Below the pieces are notes generated by a model. It did not search any database. It was not told the origin of the DNA and was given only the letters and a program-made list of their open reading frames with translations. From Actinomycetes bacterium (lineage in GTDB: Bacteria; Actinomycetota; Aquicultoria; UBA3085; Oleimmundimicrobiaceae), in assembly GCA_030614255.1 (NCBI GenBank), contig JAUWKI010000002.1, forward strand, positions 4,449-68,448: DNA of 64,000 bases. Direction: 5' to 3'. A program made the translations under genes and the position numbers. Position 1 is the first letter of the stretch. Every line of letters starts with the position of its first letter. Below, piece by piece: positions 17,558 through 37,421 of the stretch.

Positions 17558-17611
17558 CGAGTTATCATTCTCCTTTAACAGTTAATTAATAGAAAATAGC
17601 ACTGCATAGCA

Positions 17612-17630
17612 GTGCCAATATAAGTTACTA
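17612..17630 (-). terminator. Hairpin GCACTGC-ATA-GCAGTGC followed by T-rich sequence on the minus strand, downstream of the AAR-like operon
   Basis: A perfect 7-bp inverted repeat lies 80 nt after the stop at 17709. Confidence 0.5.
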
Positions 17631-17708
17631 GTTAAAGTTGTATTATAGAAAAATACTGCCTACCTGTCAAAATAAATCAACCTATCAAGAAAATGACCCG
17701 GAAGAATT

Positions 17709-18851
17709 CTAGCCTAGCTCGGAATATTTCAACATTCGACGCACTCGATAAAACCACTTTTTGTCGCTATTCAAGGCGGCATTCTTTCTTATTTCCTTGA
17801 TTTTTTCCCTGGTAATCTTCTCACCAAAACAGCGAAAGCCAGCTAGCTTAAACCCATGTTTCTTAGCAAGTTTAAAGATCTCCTCTACATTAGAGATTCG
17901 AACACTTCCCAAGTCAAAATTCTTTTGCACCCCTTCAAGACATAGAATCATGGTCTCAGCCATACACGCATAAGCATATTTATCAGGCTTCAACCTGAAG
18001 TCATAATCAAAACACGGTTTCCTTTTCACCCTCATCCCGGGTATTCTTATGATGCCCCCATCAAAAACTAAAATATCGTTTCTCTTTTTTAAAACAGAGT
18101 TAGATACATCGGGTGGTTGGGCAACATCGCAAACCACCGTCCCAGGCTCAAGATCAATAACATCAATTATAGTGTTGGCATCACTGGTAGCTGATATAAC
18201 AAGGTCCGTGTCTTTCAAAGCCTTCTTTACATCTGTAGAGACGCTAATCTCCGTAAATTTTTTCAATTTATCCGCTTGAAGTTTAAGAGCCTCTTGACGT
18301 CTTCCTACCAAAACCATCTCAGCAACCTCTGGTGCAAGAATTTCACTGCAAGCTCTTCCAATTGAACCAGTAGCGCCTACGACCACCAACTTAGCTTTAG
18401 AGATACGTATTCCCATCAATCTTGCCGCTTTTTTTATTCCCTCTACTGCAGCAGCAACCGTATAACTATTTCCGGTCGTAATCGGAAGGGTGGCTTGTTT
18501 CGCTATCGTCAACCCGCCGTTTACAGTGATAGATGTGAAACCACCTAACCCTACTATGCTGGCACCCAGCTCTTTACTTATGTCTATGGCCTCAAGAATT
18601 TTCCTTCGCGCAAGTTCGGGATGCTCTCTCATCTGCTCCGGTAAAAGGGGTACAGTTACAAACCATCCTTCAGCTTTCCTACCCGTTTTTGAGGTAAGGC
18701 CAGTAATATGCGACCCGATAAAAGGCGGCCTTTCGCACATCCAAAGGAGCAGTTTTTTTATCAGCACTATGGACTTACCAGCAGCCTTCTTCTCGAAGCT
18801 GATAACATCATCTAAGTCTAACGGATGGATTAAAAAAGCAAACTTTCTCAC
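17709..18851 (-). CDS. Acyl-ACP reductase (AAR)-family NAD(P)-dependent oxidoreductase
   Basis: Blocks LGGFTSI, TTGNSYTV, VVGATGSIG and CMAETMILCLEGVQKNFDLGSVRISNVEEIFKLAKKHGF align with the cyanobacterial AAR blocks LGGFTSI, TTGNTHTA, VVGATGDIG and [41 protein letters not shown]. Confidence 0.7.
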   Translation of the reverse strand: MRKFAFLIHPLDLDDVISFEKKAAGKSIVLIKKLLLWMCERPPFIGSHITGLTSKTGRKAEGWFVTVPLLPEQMREHPELARRKILEAIDISKELGASIVGLGGFTSITVNGGLTIAKQATLPITTGNSYTVAAAVEGIKKAARLMGIRISKAKLVVVGATGSIGRACSEILAPEVAEMVLVGRRQEALKLQADKLKKFTEISVSTDVKKALKDTDLVISATSDANTIIDVIDLEPGTVVCDVAQPPDVSNSVLKKRNDILVFDGGIIRIPGMRVKRKPCFDYDFRLKPDKYAYACMAETMILCLEGVQKNFDLGSVRISNVEEIFKLAKKHGFKLAGFRCFGEKITREKIKEIRKNAALNSDKKWFYRVRRMLKYSELG

Positions 18852-18856
18852 TCACA

Positions 18857-19300
18857 TCACCCTGTAGGTCTTTCCATCTTCGCCTTCATTCCTTTGAGCA
18901 TCATCTCCGAGTTCTCTTTCACCTTTAGCTCTAAAACAGGTCCGAGAAGATCTTCCATGTTAGGCATACCAAAATCGAAATCGACGGTCAAAGTGACTTT
19001 AGTATTTCCAGATATATCCTCAAATCTCCACTCTCCCTCAAACTTATCCAGATCACCCTCGACCAGCTCATACTTAATGAGATGATTCTCATCATCTAAT
19101 AATTCTTTTTCGGTCCAAGTTATGGCAACACCGTCAATATCGGTTACCCATTCTGTGACGGTCTCATTTTTCTCCTTCTTAATGAACCTTACTTCTTTTA
19201 CGTCCCTCATAAAGTCCGGAAACTTTTCCATATTCTTGGCTAACTCATAGACTTCTTTTTTTGGAGACTTAATCTCTATGGAACTCTTAATATAAGGCAT
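18857..19300 (-). CDS. SRPBCC (Bet v1/START-like, polyketide-cyclase-like) small protein
   Basis: 147 aa with SRPBCC-like composition. Placed tightly between the AAR-like gene and the aminotransferase. Confidence 0.6.
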   Translation of the reverse strand: MPYIKSSIEIKSPKKEVYELAKNMEKFPDFMRDVKEVRFIKKEKNETVTEWVTDIDGVAITWTEKELLDDENHLIKYELVEGDLDKFEGEWRFEDISGNTKVTLTVDFDFGMPNMEDLLGPVLELKVKENSEMMLKGMKAKMERPTG

Positions 19301-20593
19301 TTAATTTCCTCCTTCAATTTTAAACAATCGAGCATACATGGACTGTGCCTTCTCAACAGTCCCTTCAACTATCTTTAAAACTTTGTTTAACTGGTTTTCA
19401 GTAATAACAAGTGGTGGCTCAAATCTGATTACTCTTGGATTATTTAACGTATAAACGGCGGTTATTCCTCTCTTTGCCATCTCGGGAATAATAATTCCGC
19501 CAAGGCCCTCCTTGGTCAGCTCAAGGCCTATCATCAATCCTCTCCCTCTAACTTCGGAAATGATGTCAGGGTAATTTGCTTGCACACCTTTTAAACCAGC
19601 CACTAAATAATTTCCAAGATAGACGGCCCGCTCGCAGAGACCCTCTTCTAGAACAACCTCAATCATAGCTTTGGCCGCTACACAAGCCAGAGGATTTCCA
19701 CCAAAAGTCGAAGTGATAATGAGTGGGTTAGAACGAAAAACCTTCCAGACCTCAGGAGTCCCAATGAATGCCCCGATTGGGATAACCCCTCCGCTTAAAC
19801 CCTTCGCAAGCGTAATTATATCCGGAGCGACATTGTAGTGATCCACGGCAAACATCTCCCCGGTTCGCCCAAGACCAGTTTGAATTTCATCGGCTATTAA
19901 AAGAGCACCTGATTTATTACAGATATTTCTCAGCTTCGGCAGATAGTCCTCAGGAGGAATGATAATGCCTCCTTCACCTTGAATCGGCTCGACGATAACC
20001 GCCGCGGTGTTTTCACAGATTATTTCCCGAACTGCTTCAGCATCCCCAAACGGCACATGAGTAAAATCCCCCACTAGAGGCTTGAACGGGTCGCGGTAGA
20101 TATCCTTTCCGGTTGCAGATAAAGCTCCGAACGTCTTCCCATGAAAAGCATTGTGGGTTGAGATAATTTCAGTTCTACCTGTAGCCACTCGAGCGAGTTT
20201 CAAAGCTCCCTCAACGGCTTCAGCACCGCTGTTACATAAAAAAGAGTACTGAAGATTGCCCGGCGTTATCTCGGCCAAAAGTTCAGCCAAATCCGCAAGA
20301 GGCCTATTTAAAAACACTTTCGAAGATAAGGACATTTTTCCCAGTTGATTCCGGACAGCCTTTACGACTTTCGGATGACTATGCCCTATATTAAAAACGC
20401 CATACCCACCGGCACAATCTATGTACTCTTTGCCAAAAACATCGGCAATGATCGCTCCATGAGCCTCCCACTCGACGGTGTCGTACCCTGTTACCTTAAG
20501 GAGCCGAGTAAGGGATGGGTTGTGATAATTTTTCGTTTTTCGGAAAGTCTCTTCCGTTATTCTTTTTGCTGTCTCATCTTTGATATCTTCCAC
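19301..20593 (-). CDS. Class-III PLP-dependent aminotransferase (acetylornithine/omega-amine aminotransferase family)
   Basis: 430 aa. The segment DEIQTGLGRTG...TLAKGLSGG with the PLP lysine is characteristic of class III aminotransferases. Confidence 0.85.
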   Translation of the reverse strand: MEDIKDETAKRITEETFRKTKNYHNPSLTRLLKVTGYDTVEWEAHGAIIADVFGKEYIDCAGGYGVFNIGHSHPKVVKAVRNQLGKMSLSSKVFLNRPLADLAELLAEITPGNLQYSFLCNSGAEAVEGALKLARVATGRTEIISTHNAFHGKTFGALSATGKDIYRDPFKPLVGDFTHVPFGDAEAVREIICENTAAVIVEPIQGEGGIIIPPEDYLPKLRNICNKSGALLIADEIQTGLGRTGEMFAVDHYNVAPDIITLAKGLSGGVIPIGAFIGTPEVWKVFRSNPLIITSTFGGNPLACVAAKAMIEVVLEEGLCERAVYLGNYLVAGLKGVQANYPDIISEVRGRGLMIGLELTKEGLGGIIIPEMAKRGITAVYTLNNPRVIRFEPPLVITENQLNKVLKIVEGTVEKAQSMYARLFKIEGGN

Positions 20594-20601
20594 CCCATCA
20601 C

Positions 20602-21525
20602 CTAATTGAGCTCAATTATTCTGGGTCTAAATTTAAGCTTTTCAAGAAGATTAAGATAGTCATCTGACCTAATTTCATCCACTGGCTTTCCTAAAATCGC
20701 AACCATCGTGGCCTCCATAACATTGGTCCCAAAAGACCGGCCCTGTAATTCTGGGGTAGTTGTAATTAGTAACTTCACTCCCCGAGATTTCATATCTTCA
20801 ATATCACTGCCTGTTATCGTGTTTGTTAATATCCACTTACCCTCCATGCTCTGGGGCATATACTTTCGAATAAATAAATAATCTCCGGCAATTATATCCG
20901 CCTCTTCATAATATTTTGTATACTTCGGGTCCGGTTTCTCCTCTTGCTTCTCCCCTGTAGGATAAAGCTTTTCAAACCGCATCCTCACTACAAATGGCAA
21001 AGTGATTGAGGCTATAAGATTAAAAGTTGAAAGAGATCTGATAGCAATGGGAATATCCAATCCAAAGATGAGGTCACCAAATACCATTTCACACCCCGCC
21101 GCGTCCAGAGCTTCGGCCATTCCAAAGCGGTCAACTGCGCTCACCATCAAAACCTTTTTGCCCTTTAAGGACAAGCCTGCATCGTCAACAAGGTAGTGGA
21201 CAACTTCTTTTTCTAAGGTATTTTTTAAGCCACTCCCATCCGCAATGGGTGTCTTTTTGACGGCTTCTTTAAGCTTTTTTGCATCCTTTATTTCATATCT
21301 TCTTCCACCGGCGTAAAGATAGAGGTCTATCCCACCCAAACCAATGGCATCCACCTTGCCATCAAGCTCTTTAAGCATCTCTATGGCTTTGTCGAAGTCT
21401 CCATCGGTGCCAACTCTGCTTATACTAAACTCTTCCTCTAATAACTTTACTTTTACCCGATGATTTCTTTTTGAAGACCCAAGACTTACGCTTACGATTT
21501 TTTTCAATTCGCTTGCTCCCTTCAA
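20602..21525 (-). CDS. Conserved hypothetical protein (family not recognised)
   Basis: 307 aa ORF in the same operon. Its N-terminus overlaps the upstream regulator ORF by about 100 nt. Confidence 0.4.
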   Translation of the reverse strand: MKGASELKKIVSVSLGSSKRNHRVKVKLLEEEFSISRVGTDGDFDKAIEMLKELDGKVDAIGLGGIDLYLYAGGRRYEIKDAKKLKEAVKKTPIADGSGLKNTLEKEVVHYLVDDAGLSLKGKKVLMVSAVDRFGMAEALDAAGCEMVFGDLIFGLDIPIAIRSLSTFNLIASITLPFVVRMRFEKLYPTGEKQEEKPDPKYTKYYEEADIIAGDYLFIRKYMPQSMEGKWILTNTITGSDIEDMKSRGVKLLITTTPELQGRSFGTNVMEATMVAILGKPVDEIRSDDYLNLLEKLKFRPRIIELN

Positions 21526-22045
21526 TGCCGATAATATTTTCTAGAAGACCTCTAAGTTCCTCCACATCCACTTTCTTATCAGTCTTTAGTGGAGATTTAC
21601 CCAAAGAAATTCCAATTACTTCGCCATTTAAAATTTTCTCTAAAGACTCAACTCTTCTATCAGATGCTAAAAATATGACTGTGTCGAAACCCTGGAGCTC
21701 GGCAAGAACATCCAGAACTTCATTGAAGACAAAGGTTCCACCTTTCTCAACAAAAGAGAGCCGCTCCTTTTCGCTCAACAAGTAGATAAAATCGACGCCG
21801 CATTCCTTGACAACTTTCTTAACCTCTCTTTTGTTCTTCACTGGAAATCCGACGAGGGCGATTCTCTTCCCTCTTCTGACCTCTCCAAGACTTTCAAGGT
21901 GGGAAACGAAAGAGCGCTCAACACCAACTTCTGATGCAATCTCAGCTTGAGTAGCCCCACCAGAACGCTTCTTTAAGATTTCTCCCACTAAATCCATAAG
22001 TTTTTCGCGGCTTACCACTTTACTGCCGATACGAATTAACTCCAT
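21425..22045 (-). CDS. HTH-domain transcriptional regulator (putative operon regulator)
   Basis: Start taken at MELIRIGSKV. The N-terminal HTH-like segment is QAEIASEVGVERSFVSHL. It is the first gene of the 5-gene minus-strand operon. Confidence 0.5.
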   Translation of the reverse strand: MELIRIGSKVVSREKLMDLVGEILKKRSGGATQAEIASEVGVERSFVSHLESLGEVRRGKRIALVGFPVKNKREVKKVVKECGVDFIYLLSEKERLSFVEKGGTFVFNEVLDVLAELQGFDTVIFLASDRRVESLEKILNGEVIGISLGKSPLKTDKKVDVEELRGLLENIIGIEGSKRIEKNRKRKSWVFKKKSSGKSKVIRGRV

Positions 22046-22140
22046 GTTGGCCTTTCTTAAGAAGGGTGTACAAACTTGTGTACATTTTAGCACAGCTAAA
22101 AGAGGGCCTCAATAAAGATTAATTGCCAAGTTGGGAATAG

Positions 22141-22205: not shown

Positions 22206-24044
22206 TTACTGAAATGTTATATATGCAAATTTTGAAGTCCCGTCATCTAATTCTATTCTCAATCGCCAGGTTCCCCTCGTAAGATCTTTTGTCCTGAGTT
22301 TGTAAAAATATTTATTGACAAAGCTATTATAATCAAACTCGTTGTCAGTTACCTTCGAGCTACTTGAGGTAGCCGCTATCTCTTCGCCAAAAGTACCGTC
22401 GATGTTCTTCTTCGCTAACCAGAGCTTGGCAGATGCATCGGTAACAAAATCACCATTAGCATCCCACAACTGGAATTTTACGGATAAGCCACTGCCCAAT
22501 TTAAAAACACTGCTTCCATCGCTTCTAATGGGTGGAAAAACACCACTATAAACATAACGAACATAATAAGTTCTCGTCTCTATTGTTTGGTTTCCGGCTT
22601 TATCCACCGCAACCACACTAAAAGTCTTTTCACCAACCGTAGCTGTGTCAATTACTCCCCCGTCAGGAATAGTTGCCGTCACCGAAGCTATCCCCGAAAG
22701 CGAATCATCGGCCAGCCAGCCAGCTAAAGCCGGCTCGTTCAATATATACTCAGCTCCATCAACCGGTGTAATTATTGAGACCTCTGGCGCTGTATTATCT
22801 ATTAATATATCAACTTCATTACTGGTTATTACACTTTCCAAATCGAAGTCGAACTTCTGGATTCGGTCGTTGTCTGTGTCGGCCACATAAACATTGCCGC
22901 TTGAATCAACGGTTATACCTATTGGATTCCGGAACTCGCCATCGTATAAGAAGCCGTAACTTCCCCATTTCCCAAGGAAAATGCCGTTTGAGTCGAACTT
23001 CTGGATTCGATGGTTAGAAAAATCGACTACATAAACATTGCCGCTTGAGTCGACGGCTATACCTATTGGATTCCGGAACTCGCCATCGTATAAGAAGCCG
23101 TAACTTCCCCATTCGCCAAGAAACTTGCCGTCTGAGTCGAATTTCTGGATTCGGTCGTTATTACAGTCAGCCACATAAACATTGCCGTCTGAGTCGACGG
23201 TTACACCAGTGGGGCAATCAAACTCACCTTTATCCGTACCGTAACTTCCCCATTCGGTGAGGGAATCACCATCTGAGTCGAACTTCTGGATTCGGTGGTT
23301 ATTACAGTCAGTCACATAAATATTGCCGCTTGAGTTGACAGTTACACCGAACGGGTCAAATGGGCCGTCGAGTGTACCATAACTTCCCCATTCGGTGAGG
23401 AAATTGCCATCCGAGTCGAACTTCTGGATTCGGTGGTTGCCCCGATCAGCCACATAAATATTGCCGCTTGAGTCGACGGCTACACCAGTGGGACAGTTAA
23501 ACTGGCCATCGTCTATGTCAAGACTTTCCCATTCGAAGAAATTGCCATTTGAGTCAAATTTCTGGATTCGGTGATTGTACGTGTCGGCCACATAAACATT
23601 GCCGCTTGAGTCAACTACTATGTCATATGGGCGGTTAAATTGGTCGTCGAGTGTACCAGAACCTTCCCATTTCAGAGTAAACTTATAACTTCCAATAGAA
23701 ACATTGAGTCTGGAGACGTAGTCCCCTTCATTAACTGAACCGCCATCATCGTCTGTCCCGTCCCAGATGATGCTATGAGTTCCACTGTTTTGAACACCAC
23801 CGTTGACAGTTCTGATAGGCTCACTTTCCAAATCATAATCCGAATCATAAATTTCAAGCGAAACATTGCCATCGTCAACATCGATTAAAGTGTAATTTAT
23901 GCTGGTGCTACCCGTCTCTGAATTAAAAGCATAAGGATCTACGACAATGTCAATTATAGCTGAATTACCAGATGCTAACGAAGTTGGTAGTAAAAGGGCT
24001 AAAAATAAAACCACAACTGTAAAACTTGTAACTATTTTCTTCAT
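22206..24044 (-). CDS. Secreted NHL-repeat beta-propeller protein
   Basis: Signal peptide MKKIVTSFTVVVLFLALLLPTSLASG. At least 6 NHL-type repeats (GxFxxPxGVAVDSSGNIYVAD..NHRIQKFD). The DNA also carries about 130 bp tandem repeats from 22850 to 23620. Confidence 0.85.
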   Translation of the reverse strand: MKKIVTSFTVVVLFLALLLPTSLASGNSAIIDIVVDPYAFNSETGSTSINYTLIDVDDGNVSLEIYDSDYDLESEPIRTVNGGVQNSGTHSIIWDGTDDDGGSVNEGDYVSRLNVSIGSYKFTLKWEGSGTLDDQFNRPYDIVVDSSGNVYVADTYNHRIQKFDSNGNFFEWESLDIDDGQFNCPTGVAVDSSGNIYVADRGNHRIQKFDSDGNFLTEWGSYGTLDGPFDPFGVTVNSSGNIYVTDCNNHRIQKFDSDGDSLTEWGSYGTDKGEFDCPTGVTVDSDGNVYVADCNNDRIQKFDSDGKFLGEWGSYGFLYDGEFRNPIGIAVDSSGNVYVVDFSNHRIQKFDSNGIFLGKWGSYGFLYDGEFRNPIGITVDSSGNVYVADTDNDRIQKFDFDLESVITSNEVDILIDNTAPEVSIITPVDGAEYILNEPALAGWLADDSLSGIASVTATIPDGGVIDTATVGEKTFSVVAVDKAGNQTIETRTYYVRYVYSGVFPPIRSDGSSVFKLGSGLSVKFQLWDANGDFVTDASAKLWLAKKNIDGTFGEEIAATSSSSKVTDNEFDYNSFVNKYFYKLRTKDLTRGTWRLRIELDDGTSKFAYITFQ

Positions 24045-25353: not shown

Positions 25354-25794
25354 TTACAGAAGAGACCAGCCGCGCTTCAAACCCTCTTCACAATAACCTA
25401 AATTTTCCCATTCACAATCTCTGCAGATGCTCTTCATAAAATTTAAATTTATGCGTTCCTTAATCAAAGCCATCGCCCGATTGAATTGAACAACAGCTCC
25501 CGATGATATCCCCAGTTTCTCCAATAAATTTAAATCCATCGTCGTGGGTGAATTTTCGGCGAAGCTGTTGTTCTTTTGGCAACTTCCCCCTATATTATGG
25601 GGACAATATTTGCATACATCATCACACTGATGAATGAGTATAACCTCACGACTTTCATCGGCACGAAAAACTGTGATTATTTTTTTCAAGTTTGCCACAA
25701 ATTCCTCGCTATAACCTAAACCGCAAAATCCTAAAATGCAAAGAAGGTGATGAGCACGAATCTCTATGACTTCCGTTTTATCCTTTAAGAACAT
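25354..25794 (-). CDS. Cys-rich DUF1284-like protein
   Basis: 146 aa with multiple conserved Cys/His residues (HHLLCILGFCG, CKYCPH, CRDCEWENLGYC). Confidence 0.55.
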   Translation of the reverse strand: MFLKDKTEVIEIRAHHLLCILGFCGLGYSEEFVANLKKIITVFRADESREVILIHQCDDVCKYCPHNIGGSCQKNNSFAENSPTTMDLNLLEKLGISSGAVVQFNRAMALIKERINLNFMKSICRDCEWENLGYCEEGLKRGWSLL

Positions 25795-26315
25795 AAAGGT
25801 TTTACCCTTTGGATTAAGAATGAAGCCAGGGCGGCCTTAACCAGATCCACTCCAATAAAGGGAAGGACCCCAACAAGAAGTGCTTTTGAAAAACTTAATT
25901 TTGCAACGACCATAAGTTGTAAAGCTCCAATTAAATATATAAATAAAACGCCTATTATCAAGACTAAGAATATCCGAAGATAATGTAATTTGGGCTTATC
26001 CTCAGTCATTTTTCCTATAACATATGCAGCTAAGATGAAACCAAATATATAACCCCCCGTTGGGCCAATTAAAACCCCAAAACCGGAAGTTCCTCCCGCA
26101 AAAACGGGAAGCCCCAGGCAACCGAGAAGAACGTAAATTATTTGACTCAAAGCTCCCAATCTACTACCCAACAAAGCTCCAGAAAGCAACACAAAAAGAA
26201 CTTGAAGTGTGATGGGGACAGGGCTAAATGGAAGCGGAATTACCATAAGAGCCCCAACCGCCGTCAATGCTGCAAATAAAGCAACTAAAATCATACTTTT
26301 TACATCAATTTTCAT
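25785..26315 (-). CDS. bioY: Biotin transporter BioY
   Basis: 176 aa multi-pass membrane protein. The PITLQVLFVLLSGALLG segment is typical of BioY. A BirA operator lies upstream. Confidence 0.9.
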   Translation of the reverse strand: MKIDVKSMILVALFAALTAVGALMVIPLPFSPVPITLQVLFVLLSGALLGSRLGALSQIIYVLLGCLGLPVFAGGTSGFGVLIGPTGGYIFGFILAAYVIGKMTEDKPKLHYLRIFLVLIIGVLFIYLIGALQLMVVAKLSFSKALLVGVLPFIGVDLVKAALASFLIQRVKPLCS

Positions 26316-26327
26316 AAAATTTCTCCT

Positions 26328-26358
26328 TTGTTAACCAAATTTTTAAATAGGTTAACAA
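26328..26358. promoter_or_regulatory. BirA operator (bioO) palindrome TTGTTAACC-N13-GGTTAACAA
   Basis: Inverted repeat ttgttaacc aaatttttaaata ggttaacaa lies between birA and bioY, matching the Firmicutes BirA box TGTTAACC...GGTTAACA. Confidence 0.8.
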
Positions 26359-26387
26359 TTATAACAAAATAAAAACTTGATGTAAAA

Positions 26388-27362
26388 TCATTTTTTAATA
26401 ACTACATCCCCAGAGTAAATTGTACGCATTTCGCCAGAGAATAACTTCAATAATAATCCCCCATGTTCATCAATATCAAAGACCTCCCCTTCAATTTCAC
26501 CGTCCAGAACCGAAATCTTCACGTTTTTACCTAACATGTCGCAGAAATTTTTCCACTCCGACAGCACCTTCTTAAAACCACCCTCTTTTAAAGGAAAATA
26601 AACTTTTTCGAACTCTTTTAATATGGCTTTAATCAAAATCACCCTATCTACTTCAGCTCCCAATAATTCCTTCAAGGTAGTTACTTTGCCTTGCAACTCT
26701 TCGGGGAAAGCCATCAAACCAAAGTTAGTATTCACTCCCAGTCCAACCACAACAAAATTTATTTTATCGGTCTCGGCGCTCATCTCGGTTAAGATGCCGG
26801 CAACTTTTTTACTATCGATAAGAACATCGTTTGGCCACTTAAGTTGAACTTTTAATCCGGTTTCAATCTCAATAGCTTTCGCGACAGCAACTCCCGCAAG
26901 AATTGTTATCTTGGAAGCATCGATTGGTGAAATTTCAGGGCGTAAAATCATAGAAAGCCATATTCCTCCGCATGGGGAAATCCATTTTCTTCCAAGTCTA
27001 CCCTTGCCTGCAACTTGCTTTTCTGCTATAACAAGCGTCCCTTCCGAGACCCCTTTAACAGCATAAGTTTTAGCTACATCATTTGTCGAACCAACTTCAT
27101 CAAAATGATAGATCTCTTTGTTAAAAAAGGTTGTTTTTAATTTGTATCGTATTTCAGAGGGTAAAAGTTTACTGGATAATTCAATCAATCTATATCCCTG
27201 CCCTGGAACAGCTTCTATAAGATAACCCTCTTTTTTTAAATTCTGGATACTCTTCCAAATAGCAGTCCTTGATAAAGAAAGACTCCGAGAAATTTCTTCT
27301 CCTGAGACAAGCTCGCCAAAATTATCCCTTAAAAAAAATAAAACAGCTTCTTTTGAAGACAC
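26388..27362 (-). CDS. birA: Bifunctional biotin-[acetyl-CoA-carboxylase] ligase / biotin operon repressor BirA
   Basis: 324 aa with an N-terminal HTH, a BPL catalytic core (GRGRLGRKW) and a C-terminal SH3-like domain. Confidence 0.9.
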   Translation of the reverse strand: MSSKEAVLFFLRDNFGELVSGEEISRSLSLSRTAIWKSIQNLKKEGYLIEAVPGQGYRLIELSSKLLPSEIRYKLKTTFFNKEIYHFDEVGSTNDVAKTYAVKGVSEGTLVIAEKQVAGKGRLGRKWISPCGGIWLSMILRPEISPIDASKITILAGVAVAKAIEIETGLKVQLKWPNDVLIDSKKVAGILTEMSAETDKINFVVVGLGVNTNFGLMAFPEELQGKVTTLKELLGAEVDRVILIKAILKEFEKVYFPLKEGGFKKVLSEWKNFCDMLGKNVKISVLDGEIEGEVFDIDEHGGLLLKLFSGEMRTIYSGDVVIKK

Positions 27363-27586
27363 CCTATTCCCCCTTACGTTTTCTGCGATATAGATAAATT
27401 GGAAGCAAAAAGACGACTATTAACGTGCAAGCTCCCCAAAAAAAGAATGGTTTCTCCTGGAACAATTAACCCTAAAAAAATACATTTTCCAATAAGAGGG
27501 CAAAAAAGAATGTAGCACCCGTAAATTTTAAAATAGGTAAAAACTACATCTAGAATCCCTGACCCCATAAATCCATCTCTTAACAA

Positions 27587-28441
27587 TCAATCTGAGACAA
27601 GTTCAATGGAGATATTTAAGGGCGTCGAAGCCTGGGTTATCGCTCCAACAGAAATCCTGTCTATACCAGTTTTTGCCACCTCTTCAACATTGTTCAGATT
27701 TATGCCCCCCGAAGCTTCAAGAACCGCTCGTTTGCCAATAATCTCAACTGCTTCTCGTATTATCTCAATATCCATGTTATCCAACATTATAATATCAGCG
27801 CCTGTTTCTAGTGCTTCCTGGACTTGACTCAAGTTTTCGGTTTCAACTTCGATTTTTGCCTGTGGAAGAGATATCTTAACGAGCTCTATAGCCCGCTTTA
27901 TTCCTCCGGCACCAGCAATGTGATTATCCTTTATCAAAACAGTATCATATAAACCCATCCGGTGATTGCAACCTCCGCCAACTACAACAGCATACTTTTC
28001 AACCAACCTCAAACCCGGAGTCGTTTTTCTTGTGTCATAAATATCAACCCCATGTGGTCTTGCCCTCTTTACAAATTCAGATGTTAAGGTAGCTATACCA
28101 GAAAGGTGTTGAAGAAAATTAAGAGCTACTCTCTCAGCGGCCAAAACCTTAGAAACATCACCCTCTAACTCGGCAATTACCCCTTTTTCTTTGATAGTAT
28201 CGCCATCTTTGAACTTGGCCTTAAGAGTCGTGGATTCATCCACTATCTCAAATACCTTCGCGGCAACCTTAACGCCCGCCAATATGCCTCGGTCCTCACA
28301 CCGGATAAATCCCTTAATCCTCTTGGGTGCAGAGAAAATCGCATCCATGGTGATATCACCATGAACTCCTAGGTCTTCCTTAAGAGCATTCCTTATTATT
28401 CTTTCCAATTCTTCTCCGAATATCTCAACCATTTTTGCCAC
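27587..28441 (-). CDS. nadC: Nicotinate-nucleotide pyrophosphorylase (quinolinate phosphoribosyltransferase)
   Basis: 284 aa QPRTase sequence, in a nadA-nadB-nadC block. Confidence 0.9.
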   Translation of the reverse strand: MAKMVEIFGEELERIIRNALKEDLGVHGDITMDAIFSAPKRIKGFIRCEDRGILAGVKVAAKVFEIVDESTTLKAKFKDGDTIKEKGVIAELEGDVSKVLAAERVALNFLQHLSGIATLTSEFVKRARPHGVDIYDTRKTTPGLRLVEKYAVVVGGGCNHRMGLYDTVLIKDNHIAGAGGIKRAIELVKISLPQAKIEVETENLSQVQEALETGADIIMLDNMDIEIIREAVEIIGKRAVLEASGGINLNNVEEVAKTGIDRISVGAITQASTPLNISIELVSD

Positions 28442-30072
28442 TAAACCTCCAGATATATGGGTAATTCAAGATCTCGCTTCAAAATTATATGTTTTTTCCA
28501 CTTTAAATCATCGGTTTTGGGAAAATCGCTTCGAAAGTGCGCTCCTCTACTCTCTTCGCGCATCAGCGCAGATTGTGTTACTAATCTGGCAACAATGAGC
28601 ATATTTTGAAGCTCGAATTCCTCAACCCTATCAAATTTGGTCGCAAGAACTTCGCTGCTTAAATCAGAAATTTTATTAAGAGTCATCCTTAGTTCATCTT
28701 GTGTACGTATAACTCCGACGAAAGAGACCATTGCCTCACGCAATACTCTTTTACATTTGGAGATGTCGATATACTTTTTCTCTCCAACAAAATCATAACT
28801 CACATCAATGCCTGAAATGCCCTCCTTGGGCATTTCCTCAAAATCTTCCTTTAAAACATCACATATTCGCTTACTGAAAACCAATCCTTCTAAAAGGGAA
28901 TTGCTGGCCAATCTGTTTGCGCCGTGAATGCCCGAGCAAGTTACCTCACCGCTAGCATGCAAGCCGGGTAAACTTGTCCTTCCAAAAACATCCGTTTTAA
29001 CTCCCCCCATCATATAATGAGCGGCAGGCGAAACAGGTACTAAATTCTTGCTGAGGTCGTAACCATCTTCTTTACACCTATCCCAAATCATCGGAAATCT
29101 TTTCCTCAATTTCTCGGCCGGGATATGGGTAGCATCCAGATAGACATGGTCTTCTCCACAGCGCTTCATTGCTTTAACAATTTCCCTTACAACAATATCC
29201 CTCGGAGCAAGTTCGGCCATGGGATGGACTCCCACCATAAATCTCTTGTTCGCACAATCTCTTAAATAAGCACCCTCCCCCCTCAGCGCCTCCGTGATTA
29301 AAAAACGGGGACTTTTTTTGTCGCTTAAAGCAGTTGGGTGAAACTGTATAAACTCCATATCACAAACTTCTGCCCCCGCGCGGTAAGCCATTGCTACGCC
29401 ATCACCCGTTGCTATCAATGGACTGGTCGTAATATCATAAAGTTGCCCACATCCTCCCGCAGCCAAAATAACTGCTTTAGCAAAGTAAGCAACGAGTTTC
29501 TTTTCCTTGGAGTCAAATACCAAAACTCCGACGCAACGATTTTTATAGGTTAAAAAGTCTAGAGCGAAGACGTTTTCTTTAACTTGAATGCCCGGACATG
29601 ACTTCATGTTCGCAACCAGGGTCGATAAAATCTCAGCACCAGTAGAATCTCCCGAGTGAAGAACCCTCGATAAAGAATGACCACCCTCACGCCCGAGTTT
29701 AATCTCACCACTAAGGGCTCTGTCAAAATCGACACCAAGACTTATCAAATTTTCGATGGAATCACGAGCTTCATTTACAAGTACTTTAACGGCTTCAGAG
29801 TCGCATAACCCAGCACCCGCTTGCATTGTGTCTCGATAGTGAAGTTCGGGGGAGTCCTCTTTGCTCATCGCAGTCGCAACTCCACCCTGAGCATACCAAG
29901 TTGTCGTATCTTTAAGTTCGCCCTTGGTAAGAAGGATAACTTTATACTTTTGACAACATTTAAGAGCCATCGTCAACCCAGCGATTCCGCTTCCGATTAT
30001 CAACAAGTCGGATAACTGTCGCGACAGATTTCTGGTATTAAAGCTAGCTAAATAACGTGGGGTATCTTTCAA
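28441..30072 (-). CDS. nadB: L-aspartate oxidase
   Basis: 543 aa with a FAD-binding GSGIAGL motif and a succinate-dehydrogenase-like flavoprotein fold. Confidence 0.9.
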   Translation of the reverse strand: MKDTPRYLASFNTRNLSRQLSDLLIIGSGIAGLTMALKCCQKYKVILLTKGELKDTTTWYAQGGVATAMSKEDSPELHYRDTMQAGAGLCDSEAVKVLVNEARDSIENLISLGVDFDRALSGEIKLGREGGHSLSRVLHSGDSTGAEILSTLVANMKSCPGIQVKENVFALDFLTYKNRCVGVLVFDSKEKKLVAYFAKAVILAAGGCGQLYDITTSPLIATGDGVAMAYRAGAEVCDMEFIQFHPTALSDKKSPRFLITEALRGEGAYLRDCANKRFMVGVHPMAELAPRDIVVREIVKAMKRCGEDHVYLDATHIPAEKLRKRFPMIWDRCKEDGYDLSKNLVPVSPAAHYMMGGVKTDVFGRTSLPGLHASGEVTCSGIHGANRLASNSLLEGLVFSKRICDVLKEDFEEMPKEGISGIDVSYDFVGEKKYIDISKCKRVLREAMVSFVGVIRTQDELRMTLNKISDLSSEVLATKFDRVEEFELQNMLIVARLVTQSALMREESRGAHFRSDFPKTDDLKWKKHIILKRDLELPIYLEV

Positions 30073-30079
30073 ACCATCA

Positions 30080-30991
30080 TCAACTTATCTTTATCATTTT
30101 ATTTACCGCTTCTTCGGCCTTCACCCTAACTTCTTTGGGAACGACAACTCTGGTTCCCAGATTTTTAAGGGATTTTTCTATTCTATCGAGCGTAATAATT
30201 TTCATATCTTTGCAGATCGCTCCCTCAATTTTCACGAATTTTTTTTCAGGATTCTCTTTTTGCAAACGATATATCATGCCTTCTTCCGTACCCACAATTA
30301 TTTCCTTAGCAGAAGTTTCTTTTGCAAACCTAACCATTCCTGAGGTGCCCAATACCTCATCGGCCAAGTTGAGAACATCCGGGCGACATTCCGGGTGAGC
30401 TATAAAAACCGCGCCGGAGTAACTTTCTTTGAGTTTTTCAACTTGCCCCGGTTCTATATCATCATGAACAGGACAATACCCGTCCCAAAGAATTATCTCT
30501 TTACCCGTCATAGAAGCAACATAACTTCCGAGATTTTTATCCGGCACAAAGATAACTTTGTCAAAACCGTTTAAGGAATTTACCACCGCCAAAGCGTTAG
30601 CAGAAGTACAACAAATATCGCTTTCAGCTTTTACGGCCGCGGGAGAATTTACATAGCAGACTACAGCAGCATCGGGGTACTTTTTTTTCTTCTCTTTTAG
30701 AGCTTCAACGGTAATCATGTCTGCCAATTGACATCCTGCATGAGCATTCGGAAGCAATGTAATTTTTTCCGGGCTTAGAATATTGGCCGTTTCCGCCATA
30801 AAATAAACTCCGCAAAACACTATAATTTCAGCATCAACCTCTACGGCCTTGCGAGAGAGATCTAATGAATCGCCAACAAAATCGGAGATGTCTTGAATTT
30901 GAGAGGGCTGATAGTTATGCGCGAGTATAATTGCGTTTCTCTCTTTTTTGAGTCGTTTGATACGCTCTTCCAACCATCTACCTCCTAGCAA
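30080..30991 (-). CDS. nadA: Quinolinate synthase A
   Basis: 303 aa NadA-type sequence with conserved Cys ligands. Confidence 0.9.
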
Positions 30992-31368
30992 GCATCATAA
31001 GTAGCTTTATAATCCTCGACATCAACTATATGATTTTTTTCGTCTACATGAACAATTTTAGGCACCAGCTTCTTAACTTCCTCATCATCAACAAGCACAT
31101 AAGATAGAACGATTACCTTATCTCCTTTATGCACCAAATGTGCCGCGGCGCCGTTTACGCATATGACCCCCGAGCCAGCCGGGCCAGCGATGGCATAAGT
31201 CTCAAGCCGCGACCCATTGGTGATGTCCATAACTTGAACCTTTTCATGATTTAAAATGTCGGCGGCTTTCAGTAAATTTTCGTCGACAGTTATGCTCCCT
31301 ACGTAATCGAGGTTAGCTTCTGTAACAATCGCTCTATGTATCTTTCCTTTCAATATCACCCTGAACAT
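30985..31368 (-). CDS. panD: Aspartate 1-decarboxylase
   Basis: 127 aa. [29 protein letters not shown] is a classic PanD sequence. Confidence 0.95.
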
Positions 31369-31378
31369 AAACTAACAC

Positions 31379-32227
31379 CTAATTTCCTTTAATTAAAATA
31401 TTATCGATTAACCTTGCTTTGCCCACTCTAGCAGCCAAGGCAATCAAGGCTTCTCTTTTTATTATAGTCAGTTCTCGTAACGAAATAGTATCACAGATGG
31501 ACAGGTATTCTAAATTAACTAAGGGTTCTTTTTTAATTAACCTTATCATTGACTCTCTTATTTCCCCTGGATTTTTTTCACCGTTTTCTACCATTTCTGA
31601 TGCCAATCTAAGCGATTTACTTAAAACAAGCGCCGCTTTTCTTTCTTCGGAACTGAGATACCTATTGCGGGAACTCATAGCCAAACCATCTTCTTCTCTT
31701 ACTGTTGAAACACCGACCACTTGAAGATCAAAATTTAGGTCTTTAGCCATCCTCTTTACGACCATCAACTGTTGATAATCCTTTTCACCAAAGTACGCAA
31801 AATCAGGATTTACCATATTAAAGAGTTTGGAAACAACCGTGGCAACTCCTTGAAAATGACCGATTCTGCAAGCTCCGCAGAGAACATCGGTTATCTTCTC
31901 AACGTTAACATGAGTTAAGTTTTCCTCCGGATACATCTCTTCCACAGAAGGAGCAAAGAGATAATCGACTCCGACTTTCTCGGCCATCTTTGAATCACTT
32001 TTCAAGTCTCTAGGATAAGCTTCAAAATCTTCGGAGGGACCAAACTGAGTCGGATTTACAAAGATGCTGGTTACAGTAACATCGCACTCTTCTTTTGCCC
32101 TCCGCATTAGAGCAAGATGACCTTCGTGGAAACAACCCATCGTCGGGACTAACCCTATAGTTTTATCGCCTCTTCTTTCCTGCTTTAAGATTGCCTTAAT
32201 CTCTTTTATGGTTGTAACTATTTTCAT
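31379..32227 (-). CDS. panC: Pantoate--beta-alanine ligase
   Basis: 282 aa with PTMGCFHEGHLALM (HIGH-like) motifs. The ACTACCGACTTAAGGGTG word lies 13 nt before the start codon. Confidence 0.95.
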   Translation of the reverse strand: MKIVTTIKEIKAILKQERRGDKTIGLVPTMGCFHEGHLALMRRAKEECDVTVTSIFVNPTQFGPSEDFEAYPRDLKSDSKMAEKVGVDYLFAPSVEEMYPEENLTHVNVEKITDVLCGACRIGHFQGVATVVSKLFNMVNPDFAYFGEKDYQQLMVVKRMAKDLNFDLQVVGVSTVREEDGLAMSSRNRYLSSEERKAALVLSKSLRLASEMVENGEKNPGEIRESMIRLIKKEPLVNLEYLSICDTISLRELTIIKREALIALAARVGKARLIDNILIKGN

Positions 32228-32235
32228 AAAACACC

Positions 32236-32290
32236 CTTAAGTCGGTAGTATGCCTAGCTTCCAGCCCCCAGTCTCCAGCCGCCAGCATAA
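32236..32290. repeat. Heptad-periodic spacer (CTTCCAG CCCCCAG TCTCCAG CCGCCAG) between panB and panC, including the GTCGGTAGT word
   Basis: Direct reading shows 7-bp phasing of CCAG. The unit CCCCAGT is identical to cyanobacterial STRR1. Confidence 0.7.
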
Positions 32291-32461
32291 AAATTAATAA
32301 ATAAGAATGAAAAACCATAATATAAAATTAAAAATGCTTTTGTACTATTTTTGTTTTTTACTCTTTACCACTTGCCAGATTCTTATTCATACATCATTTG
32401 TTTTTCCTGGTAGCTAACGACTGATAACTGGTGGCTTCCTTCCTCTTTACCCTTTCTTTTA

Positions 32462-33265
32462 CTAACAAAACTCGTGCTCTTTGGTGGGAAACTTTTCTTT
32501 CTTTACTTCGGATATATAATCCGAAACCGCTCTCTTAATATCATTACTTAACTTCGCGTATTGTTTAACAAACTTTGGCACAAATTTATCGTACATCCCT
32601 AAAAGATCCTGAGTGACAAGAACCTGCCCATCACATTCACACCCAGCGCCAATTCCAATAGTAGGAATCGAAACCGCCCTGGTTATGTCCGCCGCAAGAC
32701 TTTTCGGGATACACTCCAGTACAATTGAAAAAACCCCTGCATCCTCAAGAATTTTTGCATCTTTAAGTAATTTTTTCTTTTGTTTATCCTCTTTGCCCTG
32801 AACCTTAAAACCTCCCATTTGGTGTACCGACTGAGGAGTAAGCCCCAAGTGTCCCATCACAGGAATTCCGGCTTTTACAATCTTATCGACTTTATCCGCC
32901 ACTTCTTCACCACCCTCGAGTTTTACCGCATGAGCGCCCGCTTCCTGTAGAAACCTACCCGCATTTCTAAGAGCTTCGTCCGCATTTACTTGATATGACA
33001 TAAAAGGCATATCCCCAATAACCATGCTCGATTTCACACCTTTAGATACCGCTTTCGTATGATGAAGCATATCATCCATAGTGACAGCCAGTGTAGTATC
33101 ATAACCAAGCACAACCATGCCCAAAGAGTCACCAACCAAAATCAAATTCACACCCAGCTCATCTAGAAGTTTTGCGGTCAAATAATCATATGCAGTTAAC
33201 ATGGTGATTTTATCGCCCTTTTGCTTCATTTCTGCAAGCTTAGTGACGGTGACTTTCTCTTTCAT
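32462..33265 (-). CDS. panB: 3-methyl-2-oxobutanoate hydroxymethyltransferase
   Basis: 267 aa PanB/KPHMT sequence. Confidence 0.95.
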
Positions 33266-33268
33266 CTT

Positions 33269-34141: not shown

Positions 34142-34286
34142 TTTTTACTCCAAAAATAAAAAAATCTTCTGACCAGCAGAAGATAAAGACTTTTAGCCAT
34201 CTTCCGTCCCGGTCACATTAGATCCAAGCGGTTTTACAGCAGTAGCCATAAAAATTTTGTACTATTTTAGCTTAGAATTATACCAC

Positions 34287-34778: not shown

Positions 34779-34794
34779 TTAAACACCCCTGTTA

Positions 34795-34978
34795 TTAGCT
34801 ACCAGTCACCAGCTTACAGCCACCAGGATAAAGTGCAAGACTTGAAATTCAGAGAATGGATTTGTGGTTAGAAAGTTTGGTTTGCCGGATTATTGGTTGG
34901 ATAGTTTTCCCCATACTCCAACATTCTGCTCTATTTTTAGTTTTGCTGAAAGCTGAGAGCTGGAGGCTGACGGCTAAA
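34795..34978. repeat. Heptad-periodic spacer between folP and folK (TAGCTAC CAGTCAC CAGCTTA CAGCCAC; GCTGAAA GCTGAGA GCTGGAG GCTGACG)
   Basis: Two phased 7-mer arrays flank a GTTTGGT/GTTGGAT-rich middle. The 200 bp gap sits inside a presumably co-transcribed folate operon. Confidence 0.7.
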
Positions 34979-36755: not shown

Positions 36756-36810
36756 CAATACTAAATTAGAAGTAATATAATCAAATATAATAGCTCTATT
36801 CCCCCAAAAT

Positions 36811-37400: not shown

Positions 37401-37421
37401 TCTTACAGATAAATGTCCTGC

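What the first reader, a model, noticed from the sequence alone, without database searches (positions are those of the whole stretch)
17709..22045. Five-gene operon pairing a cyanobacterial-type acyl-ACP reductase (AAR) homolog with a class-III aminotransferase, an SRPBCC lipid-binding-type protein, an unknown protein and an HTH regulator
The 380 aa product of 17709-18851 aligns block-by-block with AAR of alkane-producing cyanobacteria (LGGFTSI, TTGN.H/YT, VVGATGxIG, C-terminal CxAExMxLxxEG...NF). No aldehyde-deformylating oxygenase is present. Instead the gene abuts an SRPBCC (hydrophobic ligand-binding) protein and a PLP aminotransferase. An acyl-ACP to fatty aldehyde to fatty amine route is a plausible, to my knowledge uncharacterised, function. 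That route is inference only. The uncharacterised 307 aa protein and a dedicated HTH regulator complete the unit, and a terminator hairpin follows at 17612.
Basis: partly seen in the sequence, partly recalled or inferred. Interest (0 to 1): 0.7.

Follow-up and report, generated by a model that had tools for sequence, protein, structure and literature searches.

The report
Split thioester-reductase/transaminase amine-forming operon
This is a real five-gene operon whose reductase and aminotransferase are the separated halves of a known enzyme type that turns a carrier-bound acid into an aldehyde and then an amine; what is new is that they come with two undescribed conserved partner proteins in many anaerobic bacteria.

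Summary
Five tightly packed minus-strand genes (22045-17709) encode an XRE-type HTH protein (g5), a 301-aa protein with no family model (g4), a class-III aminotransferase (g3), an SRPBCC protein (g2) and an AAR-type reductase (g1).

g1 has the AAR catalytic Cys and NAD(P)H loop. However, it matches the thioester-reductase domain of PigE better than cyanobacterial AAR, and it fails the AAR equivalog cutoff. g3 matches the PigE transaminase domain and E. coli putrescine aminotransferase. So g1+g3 is a split PigE/TamH-type pair. The thioester to aldehyde to amine chemistry is already characterised for the fused enzymes, so it is not new.

Three things appear to be new:
- AT-SRPBCC-reductase is a fixed trio across at least four phyla, seen in 19 of 19 SRPBCC-centred metagenome loci.
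- The g5-g4-g1 core occupies a conserved slot between coaX and greA-lysS.

The substrate and product are unknown. I rate this a new variant of a known kind, with moderate interest.

The parts
21425..22045 (-). g5: a 206-aa XRE-type HTH protein. It has an N-terminal helical HTH (about residues 13-53), a Rossmann/flavodoxin-like alpha/beta domain (about 60-150) and a disordered basic C-tail encoded in the overlap with g4. It is the putative local regulator.
22084..22112 (-). Promoter-like site (TTGAGG, 17 nt, TG-TAAAAT) upstream of g5. It lies just downstream of the terminator of the preceding NHL-repeat gene.
   Evidence: This is a consensus match only and is not proof of function.
20602..21507 (-). 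g4: a 301-aa protein of a large, highly conserved family with no Pfam or NCBIfam model. Databases call it 'quinate 5-dehydrogenase'. Its predicted fold is AAR-like but lacks a conserved Cys and a GxGxxG loop. It is an obligate partner of g1.
19301..20593 (-). g3: a 430-aa class-III (omega) aminotransferase of the YgjG/PigE-TA type. The PLP lysine is K264 in TLAKG.
   Evidence: PF00202 scores 387 bits. NCBIfam gives putrescine aminotransferase 505 bits (below the 612 cutoff) and PigE model positions 369-735 at 404 bits. Against the PDB, YgjG gives E 2e-119 and PigE 8.6e-85.
18857..19300 (-). g2: a 147-aa SRPBCC/START-fold protein. It always lies between the aminotransferase and the reductase when those two are separate genes.
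   Evidence: PF03364 at 5e-22. PDB TTHA0849 (2d4r) at 5e-21. All 19 close relatives in metagenome contigs lie in AT-SRPBCC-g1 wherever the contig allows. The AT~g1 fusion locus L071 has no SRPBCC gene.
17709..18851 (-). g1: a 380-aa AAR-superfamily thioester reductase. It carries the NAD(P)H loop G159-A-T-G-S-I-G165, an Arg-rich beta2 loop (VGRR at 182), the catalytic Cys296 in YACMAET, and a clade-specific amphipathic basic C-tail (KKWFYRVRRMLKY).
   Evidence: NCBIfam PigE model positions 50-358 score 211 bits and AAR TIGR04058 scores 128 bits. PDB 4ppm gives 1.5e-34 and 6jzq gives 2e-27, with the Cys motif aligned. Invariant motifs across 25 family members are shown. The tail has a hydrophobic moment of 0.81.
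17588..17617 (-). Terminator-like hairpin (9-bp stem plus T-tract), 92 nt after the g1 stop codon. It stops operon read-through but lies inside the greA leader.
17642..17670 (-). Perfect sigma-70 consensus promoter (TTGACA, 17 nt, TATAAT) for greA, between the g1 stop and the hairpin. It marks the 3' boundary of the operon.
   Evidence: It scores 12 of 12 matches. The sequence is shown.

Best explanation
The operon encodes a split, PigE/TamH-type reductive amination module embedded in a broader conserved g5-g4-g1 unit.

Proposed steps:
1. g1 takes an acyl group from a phosphopantetheine thioester (acyl-ACP or acyl-CoA) onto Cys296. It reduces it with NAD(P)H to a free aldehyde. NADPH is the likely cofactor, because the beta2 loop carries Arg rather than an acidic residue.
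2. g2, an SRPBCC hydrophobic-ligand binder, takes up the aldehyde and passes it on. It does the job that covalent fusion does in PigE and TamH.
3. g3, a YgjG/PigE-like omega-transaminase, converts the aldehyde into a primary amine, probably with glutamate as the donor.
4. g4, which has an AAR-like fold but no Cys or dinucleotide loop, works in a complex with g1. It may bind the substrate or carrier, or act as a regulatory subunit.
5. g5 is the local XRE-type regulator.

What is shown here: the family assignments, the catalytic motifs, the conserved order, and the gene fusions. What is inferred: the acyl chain is aliphatic and hydrophobic, the direction of flux, the hand-over role of g2, and the roles of g4 and g5.
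For: - g1 best matches the PigE reductase domain and AAR over its full length, with the catalytic Cys and the GATGSIG loop invariant in the family.
- g3 matches the PigE transaminase domain and YgjG.
- The literature shows this enzyme pair performs thioester to aldehyde to amine: PigE (PMC8341465) and TamH with C12-ACP (PMC9594044). The Thermincola and Thermaerobacter TAm-AAR fusions transaminate aliphatic aldehydes with L-Glu (PMC10829540).
- A 911-aa AT~g1 fusion occupies the same slot after g5-g4 in L071.
- The AT-SRPBCC-g1 order is fixed in Aquicultoria, Eremiobacterota, Armatimonadota and Bacillota MAGs. It also holds in 19 of 19 SRPBCC-centred metagenome loci.
- AT-linked g1 proteins form their own clades with a distinct motif, QPP or LPH against RPR in AT-less g1.
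- g4 and g1 are adjacent in at least 33 species with a catalytically intact g1, and they are fused in 5 representative proteins.
- The hydrophobic-ligand fold of g2 and the amphipathic tail of g1 point to a lipophilic substrate.
Against: - No acyl carrier protein, acyl-activating enzyme or fatty-acid synthase gene is in the operon, so the substrate is unidentified.
- The closest characterised relative of g3 is a catabolic diamine transaminase (YgjG), not a fatty-amine synthase.
- Most g4-g1 loci lack AT and SRPBCC, so amine formation is not the core function of the wider module.
- In about 12 Firmicutes loci the g1-like gene has lost its Cys and GxGxxG. The g4 partnership therefore does not always need g1 catalysis.
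- The reductase halves of PigE and the thermophile fusions were not cleanly reconstituted in vitro (PMC8341465, PMC10829540).
- No experiment exists for any member of this cassette.
Confidence: 0.6

Rival explanations
1. The core g5-g4-g1 unit has a housekeeping role of its own. It might supply an aldehyde for a lipid, ether-lipid, alcohol or cofactor pathway in anaerobic Terrabacteria. On this reading the AT+SRPBCC pair is a lineage-specific add-on that diverts or detoxifies the aldehyde, so the amine is not the primary product.
For: - g5-g4-g1 without AT is the majority arrangement and always sits between coaX/dus and greA-lysS.
- g4 is more conserved (53-82% identity) than g1 (about 45%).
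- The g4~g1 fusion P0353 is followed by an extended SDR with a NAD_binding_4 hit, as expected for aldehyde-to-alcohol reduction.
- A close g1 relative is followed by gpsA and glycosyltransferase genes.
Against: - AT-linked g1 proteins form separate, basal-looking clades with their own motif, not a recent add-on within the AT-less clade (NJ tree only).
- The SRPBCC type is found only inside the AT-SRPBCC-g1 trio.
- No downstream aldehyde-using enzyme is conserved next to the core.
Confidence: 0.2
2. The flux is catabolic, in the reverse direction. g3 deaminates an amine such as putrescine, cadaverine or an alkylamine to an aldehyde. g1 then runs as a CoA- or ACP-acylating aldehyde dehydrogenase, conserving the energy as a thioester in an anaerobe.
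For: - The nearest characterised relative of g3 is the catabolic putrescine aminotransferase YgjG, at 402 bits against 288 bits for PigE.
- A phosphate acyl/butyryl-transferase gene lies directly upstream of the trio in the Armatimonadota locus L088.
- Aldehyde oxidation to a thioester is thermodynamically favourable (general knowledge).
Against: - Every characterised AAR-superfamily enzyme (AAR, PigE, TamH) works reductively.
- No kinase, transporter or further catabolic gene is in the window operon.
- The PTA_PTB neighbour was seen in only one locus.
- The cassette sits in a biosynthetic and housekeeping neighbourhood: pan, nad, birA, coaX, greA, lysS.
Confidence: 0.12
3. g1 is a true cyanobacterial-type AAR feeding an alkane or alcohol pathway.
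For: g1 shares the fold, the Cys and the NADPH loop with AAR, and aligns at full length.
Against: - TIGR04058 scores 128 bits against a cutoff of 449.7.
- The PigE domain scores higher.
- No aldehyde-deformylating oxygenase lies among the identified neighbours.
- The host is an Aquicultoria-class actinobacterium, not a cyanobacterium.
Confidence: 0.02
4. g1 and g4 are shikimate/quinate or amino-acid dehydrogenases, as the databases annotate them, and the operon is unrelated to thioester reduction.
For: Source names include 'shikimate dehydrogenase', 'quinate 5-dehydrogenase' and 'predicted amino acid dehydrogenase'. Pfam Shikimate_DH scores 43 bits on g1.
Against: - The Pfam hit covers only the NAD-binding domain, residues 143-256.
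- NCBIfam shikimate dehydrogenase scores only 19 bits.
- g1 has the AAR/PigE-specific N- and C-terminal domains and the catalytic Cys.
- g4 matches no shikimate dehydrogenase model and lacks a dinucleotide loop.
Confidence: 0.03

Closest known systems
PigE (prodigiosin MAP biosynthesis; NF053554; PDB 4ppm)
   Same: PigE combines an AAR-type thioester-reductase domain with a class-III transaminase domain and performs thioester to aldehyde to amine. g1 aligns to the reductase part (211 bits; E 1.5e-34 against 4ppm) and g3 to the transaminase part (404 bits).
   Different: Here there are two separate genes with an SRPBCC gene between them. The gene order is the reverse of the PigE domain order (AT first). 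There is no prodigiosin or PKS cluster. The cassette sits in a housekeeping neighbourhood and has the extra partners g4 and g5. The combined score is below the PigE equivalog cutoff of 850.
TamH (tambjamine YP1) and the PP_2782/KecF, Thermincola and Thermaerobacter TAm-AAR fusions
   Same: These have the AT-then-reductase order and an AAR-type Cys/GxxGxxG reductase. They make aliphatic amines from carrier-bound acyl chains (PMC9594044) and transaminate aliphatic aldehydes with L-Glu (PMC10829540). A fusion of this type fills the same slot after g5-g4 in L071.
   Different: They are covalent fusions without an SRPBCC. TamH and KecF lie in secondary-metabolite clusters that have their own ACP. 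The AT part of the L071 fusion is only about 38% identical to g3.
Cyanobacterial acyl-ACP reductase (AAR; TIGR04058; PDB 6jzq)
   Same: It has the same fold, catalytic Cys (C294, equivalent to C296 here) and NADPH loop. It carries out ping-pong acyl-enzyme reduction of acyl-ACP to a fatty aldehyde.
   Different: g1 scores 128 bits against a cutoff of 449.7. There is no ADO partner. The phylum and the pathway partners are different.
E. coli putrescine aminotransferase YgjG/PatA (NF008570; PDB 4uox, 5h7d)
   Same: It is the closest characterised relative of g3 (E 2e-119). It is an omega-transaminase acting on terminal amines and aldehydes.
   Different: g3 is below the equivalog cutoff (505 bits against 612). 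YgjG is catabolic and is not linked to a thioester reductase or an SRPBCC protein.
GluTR-GSAM pair (HemA-HemL)
   Same: It is an analogous two-enzyme logic. A Cys-dependent NADPH reductase of an activated ester hands an aldehyde to a class-III PLP enzyme. The PigE paper notes this parallel (PMC8341465).
   Different: g1 scores only 38 bits on the hemA model. The substrate there is Glu-tRNA, and GSAM is an aminomutase.
TabE/TabA (tambjamine BE-18591, Streptomyces)
   Same: It uses separate reductase and transaminase genes to convert a C12 acyl-ACP into a fatty amine.
   Different: TabE is ALDH/LuxC-like, not AAR-fold (bioRxiv 10.1101/2025.08.11.669332). The resemblance is an analogy only.

Membership tests
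Cyanobacterial long-chain acyl-ACP reductase (TIGR04058 equivalog) | Score at or above the curated equivalog cutoff (449.7 bits) | tested here: not met
   128.1 bits
Cyanobacterial long-chain acyl-ACP reductase (TIGR04058 equivalog) | Catalytic Cys (C294 in SeAAR) in the ACxAE motif, and the GxTGxIG NADPH loop | tested here: met
   C296 in YACMAET aligns with FACFAEAM of 6jzq. GATGSIG lies at 159-165. Both are invariant in 25 family members.
Cyanobacterial long-chain acyl-ACP reductase (TIGR04058 equivalog) | Genomic pairing with aldehyde-deformylating oxygenase | tested here: not met
   All operon genes and flanking genes have other identities. The whole window was not scanned against Pfam.
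AAR/PigE-N/TAD superfamily (COG5322) thioester reductases | Full-length alignment to solved members, including the N-terminal, Rossmann and C-terminal Cys-bearing domains | tested here: met
   4ppm residues 47-357 give E 1.5e-34. 6jzq residues 33-335 give E 2e-27. The carmabin TAD 9e4x gives 1.6e-11.
AAR/PigE-N/TAD superfamily (COG5322) thioester reductases | NAD(P)H-dependent reduction of an acyl-thioester to an aldehyde | not testable with these tools
   This needs an enzyme assay.
PigE equivalog (NF053554) | Single bifunctional polypeptide scoring at least 850 bits, in a prodigiosin cluster | tested here: not met
   g1 scores 211 bits and g3 scores 404 bits as separate proteins. No pig genes are nearby.
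Class-III aminotransferase (PF00202) | Pfam gathering score, and a PLP-binding lysine | tested here: met
   387 bits against a cutoff of 30.5. K264 lies in TLAKG.
Putrescine aminotransferase equivalog (NF008570 / TIGR03372) | Score at or above the curated cutoffs (612 and 658.65 bits) | tested here: not met
   504.8 and 434.4 bits
SRPBCC / Polyketide_cyc (PF03364) | Pfam gathering score over the full domain | tested here: met
   78.9 bits against a cutoff of 23.4, covering residues 13-132. PDB 2d4r gives E 5e-21.
XRE-type HTH transcription regulator | HTH_3 or HTH_31 domain above the gathering score | tested here: inconclusive
   The window protein scores 18.7 bits against a cutoff of 27. HTH_31 hits 12 of 28 relatives and HTH_3 hits 11 of 28, with a best E of 4e-6. 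The AF2 model shows a helical N-terminal unit. DNA binding was not tested.
Shikimate/quinate dehydrogenase (database name for g1 and g4) | Match to the substrate-binding N-terminal domain and to AroE equivalog models | tested here: not met

The most novel reading that the evidence does not exclude
g4 defines an undescribed enzyme or subunit family with an AAR-like fold and no redox motifs. Together with an AAR-type reductase it forms a two-subunit machine, sometimes as a single chain, that is widespread in anaerobic Terrabacteria. In Aquicultoria, Eremiobacterota and Armatimonadota lineages this machine is coupled through a dedicated SRPBCC carrier to a transaminase. The product would be a primary-metabolic lipophilic amine, such as a fatty amine or long-chain base for an unknown membrane lipid. 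This would be a housekeeping pathway, not a secondary-metabolite one. The fusion of g4 to an alpha-oxoamine-synthase-like PLP enzyme (P0409) would fit a general role for g4 in presenting acyl-thioesters to amine-forming enzymes.
Probability: 0.25. Interest if true: 0.8.

Novelty: new variant of a known kind. Interest (0 to 1): 0.55.

Why it matters
The reductase-transaminase chemistry is known from pigment and alkaloid clusters and is sought after for biocatalytic amine synthesis. Here the same logic appears as a split, SRPBCC-bridged cassette in a conserved housekeeping slot of uncultured and anaerobic lineages. That implies a physiological amine, or an aldehyde in the AT-less majority, that nobody has looked for.

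The work also re-annotates two large mis-named families ('shikimate dehydrogenase' and 'quinate 5-dehydrogenase'). It identifies g4 as an uncharacterised, highly conserved partner of AAR-type reductases, with 1289 clusters at 50% identity, supported by gene fusions.

This gives a clear and testable entry point: co-expression of g4 and g1 may be what earlier in-vitro work on PigE and the thermophile fusions was missing.

Tried and rejected
1. Beta-alanine supply (malonyl-thioester to malonate semialdehyde to beta-alanine), suggested by the coaX/panBC neighbourhood. Rejected because panD is present at 30985-31368 with its YVGS processing motif.
2. g4 as a sequence paralogue of g1. hhalign gives probability 0.3%, so only fold-level similarity can be claimed.
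3. g4 sequence against the PDB. Nothing was found.
4. A search for a common theme in stand-alone g4 contexts (Carboxydothermus, Desulfofundulus). No theme emerged.
6. Rfam scan of the operon and its leaders. Nothing reached threshold.
7. The afdb50 fold library was unavailable.
8. Literature searches for the cassette ('quinate 5-dehydrogenase' with AAR; thioester reductase with transaminase and SRPBCC; non-cyanobacterial AAR homologues). No description was found.
9. TabE as a homologue. Rejected because it is ALDH/LuxC-like.
10. The 334-aa gene upstream of the AOS~g4 fusion and the 320-aa gene upstream of g5 in Thermosediminibacter. Neither is related to g1 or g4.


Full report
OBSERVATION

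The five co-directional minus-strand ORFs exist as described.
- g5 starts at the ATG at 22045 (RBS AAGAAAGG). A promoter-like TTGAGG-17-TGnTAAAAT lies at 22112-22084, just after the terminator of the upstream NHL-repeat gene.
- The longest ORF for g4 begins at 21525. Homologues are 300-302 aa, and a GGGAG RBS precedes the TTG at 21507, so g4 is 301 aa and overlaps the g5 stop by 83 nt.
- The remaining junctions are 8, 0 and 5 nt. This is a tightly packed operon.
- The hairpin at 17617-17597 is real (9-bp stem plus T-tract). It lies downstream of a perfect TTGACA-17-TATAAT promoter (17670-17642) and upstream of the greA RBS. It can stop operon read-through, but it is physically part of the greA leader.

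IDENTITY OF THE FIVE PROTEINS

g1 (reductase). In Pfam, g1 matches only the NAD-binding domain of Shikimate_DH (43 bits, residues 143-256). In NCBIfam its best hit is the N-terminal 50-358 of the 837-position PigE model (211 bits, E 2.6e-62). AAR TIGR04058 comes next (128 bits, cutoff 449.7) and hemA is far behind (38 bits). Against solved structures, PigE 4ppm (E 1.5e-34) beats SeAAR 6jzq (2e-27), and the AAR catalytic-Cys motif is aligned. In a 25-member alignment the motifs GLGxFTS, TtGNSyT, GAxGSIG, an Arg in the beta2 loop and A-C-M-x-E-T are invariant. g1 is therefore a bona fide AAR-superfamily Cys-dependent NAD(P)H thioester reductase. It is not the cyanobacterial equivalog.

g3 (aminotransferase). 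g3 is a class-III aminotransferase (387 bits). It is closest to putrescine aminotransferase (505 bits, below the 612 cutoff; PDB YgjG E 2e-119) and to the transaminase part of PigE (404 bits; 4ppm 8.6e-85). K264 in TLAKG is the PLP lysine.

g2 (SRPBCC). g2 is an SRPBCC/START protein (PF03364, 5e-22). Its nearest solved structure is TTHA0849, of unknown function.

g5 (regulator). g5 has a weak XRE-type HTH that is corroborated at family level. It also has a generic alpha/beta domain.

g4 (unknown partner). g4 matches no Pfam or NCBIfam model and no PDB sequence.

WHAT THE LITERATURE ALREADY KNOWS

- PigE is now regarded as bifunctional. An N-terminal AAR-like thioester reductase makes 3-acetyloctanal, and the C-terminal class-III transaminase aminates it (PMC8341465).
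- PtTamH is a TA plus AAR-type TR fusion. With TamA it converts a C12 acid, via the ACP thioester and the aldehyde, into the C12 amine in vitro (PMC9594044).
- PP_2782/KecF and fusions from Thermincola ferriacetica and Thermaerobacter are TAm-AAR fusions. Their TAm parts prefer aliphatic aldehydes and L-Glu (PMC10829540).
- TabE/TabA is an analogous split pair, but TabE is ALDH-like.

COMPARATIVE GENOMICS

The identical g1 protein occurs on a 129-kb contig. The nearest named relatives are Ca. Oleimmundimicrobium (Actinomycetota, class Ca. Aquicultoria).

In 80 species loci centred on g4, the common order is bioY-coaX-...-g5-g4-[g1]-greA-lysS.
- A catalytically intact g1 follows g4 in 33 loci.
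- About 12 Firmicutes loci carry a degenerate g1-like ORF lacking the Cys and GxGxxG.
- AT is present in only 7 of the 80 loci, and SRPBCC in 4.

Where AT is present the arrangement is strict. It is either g5-g4-AT-SRPBCC-g1 (Aquicultoria type, as in this window) or AT-SRPBCC-g1-g4-greA-lysS. The second type occurs in Eremiobacterota, Armatimonadota, a Bacillota MAG and another lineage. I predicted this second set of contexts from a g1 sequence motif (LPHDVS, against ARPRDVS in AT-less g1 and AQPPDVS in the window clade), and the prediction was confirmed. An NJ tree places AT-linked g1 proteins in separate clades from a single AT-less clade.

In L071, a 911-aa AT~g1 fusion follows g5-g4 and there is no SRPBCC gene.

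I ran an independent test centred on g2. All 19 close SRPBCC relatives in metagenome contigs (43-71% identity) have g1 downstream wherever the contig allows. All but one (L110) also have AT upstream.

THE g4 PARTNER

g4 is more conserved than g1. It keeps 53-57% identity even to Thermosediminibacter, Tepidanaerobacter and Eremiobacterota, and has about 60 invariant, mostly polar positions.

An exhaustive profile search finds 1289 clusters at 50% identity. Among the best 150:
- Five are full-length g4~g1 fusions. Three of these have intact reductase motifs.
- One is a class I/II (alpha-oxoamine-synthase-like, judged from the GGFSKAFG motif) PLP enzyme fused to g4.

Adjacency in dozens of species plus repeated fusion make a physical and functional g4-g1 partnership the best-supported new inference. 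The activity of g4 remains unknown.

MECHANISM

The most likely scheme has five parts:
1. g1, working with g4, reduces an acyl-thioester to an aldehyde.
2. g2 binds the hydrophobic aldehyde and delivers it.
3. g3 aminates it.
4. g5 regulates the operon.
5. The substrate is probably aliphatic and lipophilic.

The role of g2 is inferred from two facts. It is always encoded between AT and the reductase when they are separate, and it is absent when they are fused. The hydrophobic nature of the substrate is inferred from four observations:
- the SRPBCC fold of g2;
- the clade-specific amphipathic C-tail of g1 (hydrophobic moment 0.81);
- the aliphatic preference of the related fusions;
- a gpsA neighbour of a close g1 relative.

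A beta-alanine-supply role was considered because of the pan/coaX context. It was rejected because panD is present.

Two alternatives cannot be excluded:
- A catabolic, reverse-direction reading (YgjG-like g3; a PTA_PTB neighbour in L088).
- A reading in which the core g5-g4-g1 has its own aldehyde-centred housekeeping role.

VERDICT

The chemistry is a split version of a known bifunctional enzyme type.

The novelty lies in three features:
- the SRPBCC-bridged trio;
- the unrecognised g4 family as a partner of AAR-type reductases;
- the conserved housekeeping synteny across several Terrabacteria phyla.

Neither the substrate nor the product is known, and nothing here is experimentally tested. 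Novelty: new variant of a known kind. Interest: 0.55.

Noticed in passing
window 17588-17670 (minus strand): A perfect sigma-70 consensus promoter (TTGACA-17-TATAAT) is followed within about 25 nt by a terminator-like hairpin with a T-tract. Both lie upstream of the greA RBS and ATG (17557). This may be a greA leader attenuator or short leader transcript. From memory, it is reminiscent of the E. coli greA leader (GraL).
   Followed up: partly
window 21425-21507: g5 and g4 overlap out of frame by 83 nt. The overlap encodes a basic, disordered C-tail of g5 (RKSWVFKKK...). The tail is conserved in Aquicultoria-type relatives and absent from the 173-176-aa Firmicutes g5 proteins. Its conservation may simply mirror the conserved g4 N-terminus in the other frame.
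   Followed up: partly
L018 323-2739; L094; L095; L031 6964-8900: Some Actinomycetota loci carry two g4 copies, either flanking g5 (g4-g5-g4-AT-SRPBCC-g1) or in tandem.
   Followed up: no
L025, L033, L038, L049, L073, L078, L082, L083 (gene after g4): About 12 Firmicutes loci carry a degenerate g1-like ORF after g4. It is 230-330 aa, has 'WEEGNLG' instead of GATGSIG, and has no catalytic Cys. The slot is kept but catalysis appears to be lost.
   Followed up: partly
P0353, P0393, P0461, P0448, P0480, P0409 (L091, L092): There are natural g4~g1 fusion proteins of 687-827 aa. There is also one alpha-oxoamine-synthase-like class I/II aminotransferase fused to g4 (762 aa). In L091 the g4~g1 fusion is followed by an extended SDR gene (3Beta_HSD/NAD_binding_4).
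   Followed up: partly
window 17709-17770 (g1 residues 361-380): g1 has a clade-specific basic amphipathic C-terminal tail (KKWFYRVRRMLKY, hydrophobic moment about 0.8). It is conserved only in the window clade of g1 (at least 64% identity). It may be a membrane-association helix.
   Followed up: partly
window 22206-24044 (minus strand): A 612-aa secreted NHL-repeat protein with its own terminator is inserted between coaX and the operon. Relatives usually have dus or other genes at this position.
   Followed up: no
window 25354-39341: The upstream block is a run of cofactor and housekeeping genes on the same strand: ftsH, folP, a DUF2520 Rossmann protein, panB, panC, panD, nadA, nadB, nadC, birA, bioY, DUF1284 and coaX. 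The coaX...greA-lysS synteny is shared with Firmicutes.
   Followed up: partly
L001 4495-5457; L003 3269-4228: In Thermosediminibacter and Tepidanaerobacter a conserved 320-aa protein with no Pfam domain lies between dus and g5. It is unrelated to g1 and g4 by HMM.
   Followed up: partly
L110 1-2217: This is the only SRPBCC-centred metagenome locus with no aminotransferase hit in the 2.2 kb upstream of SRPBCC-g1.
   Followed up: no
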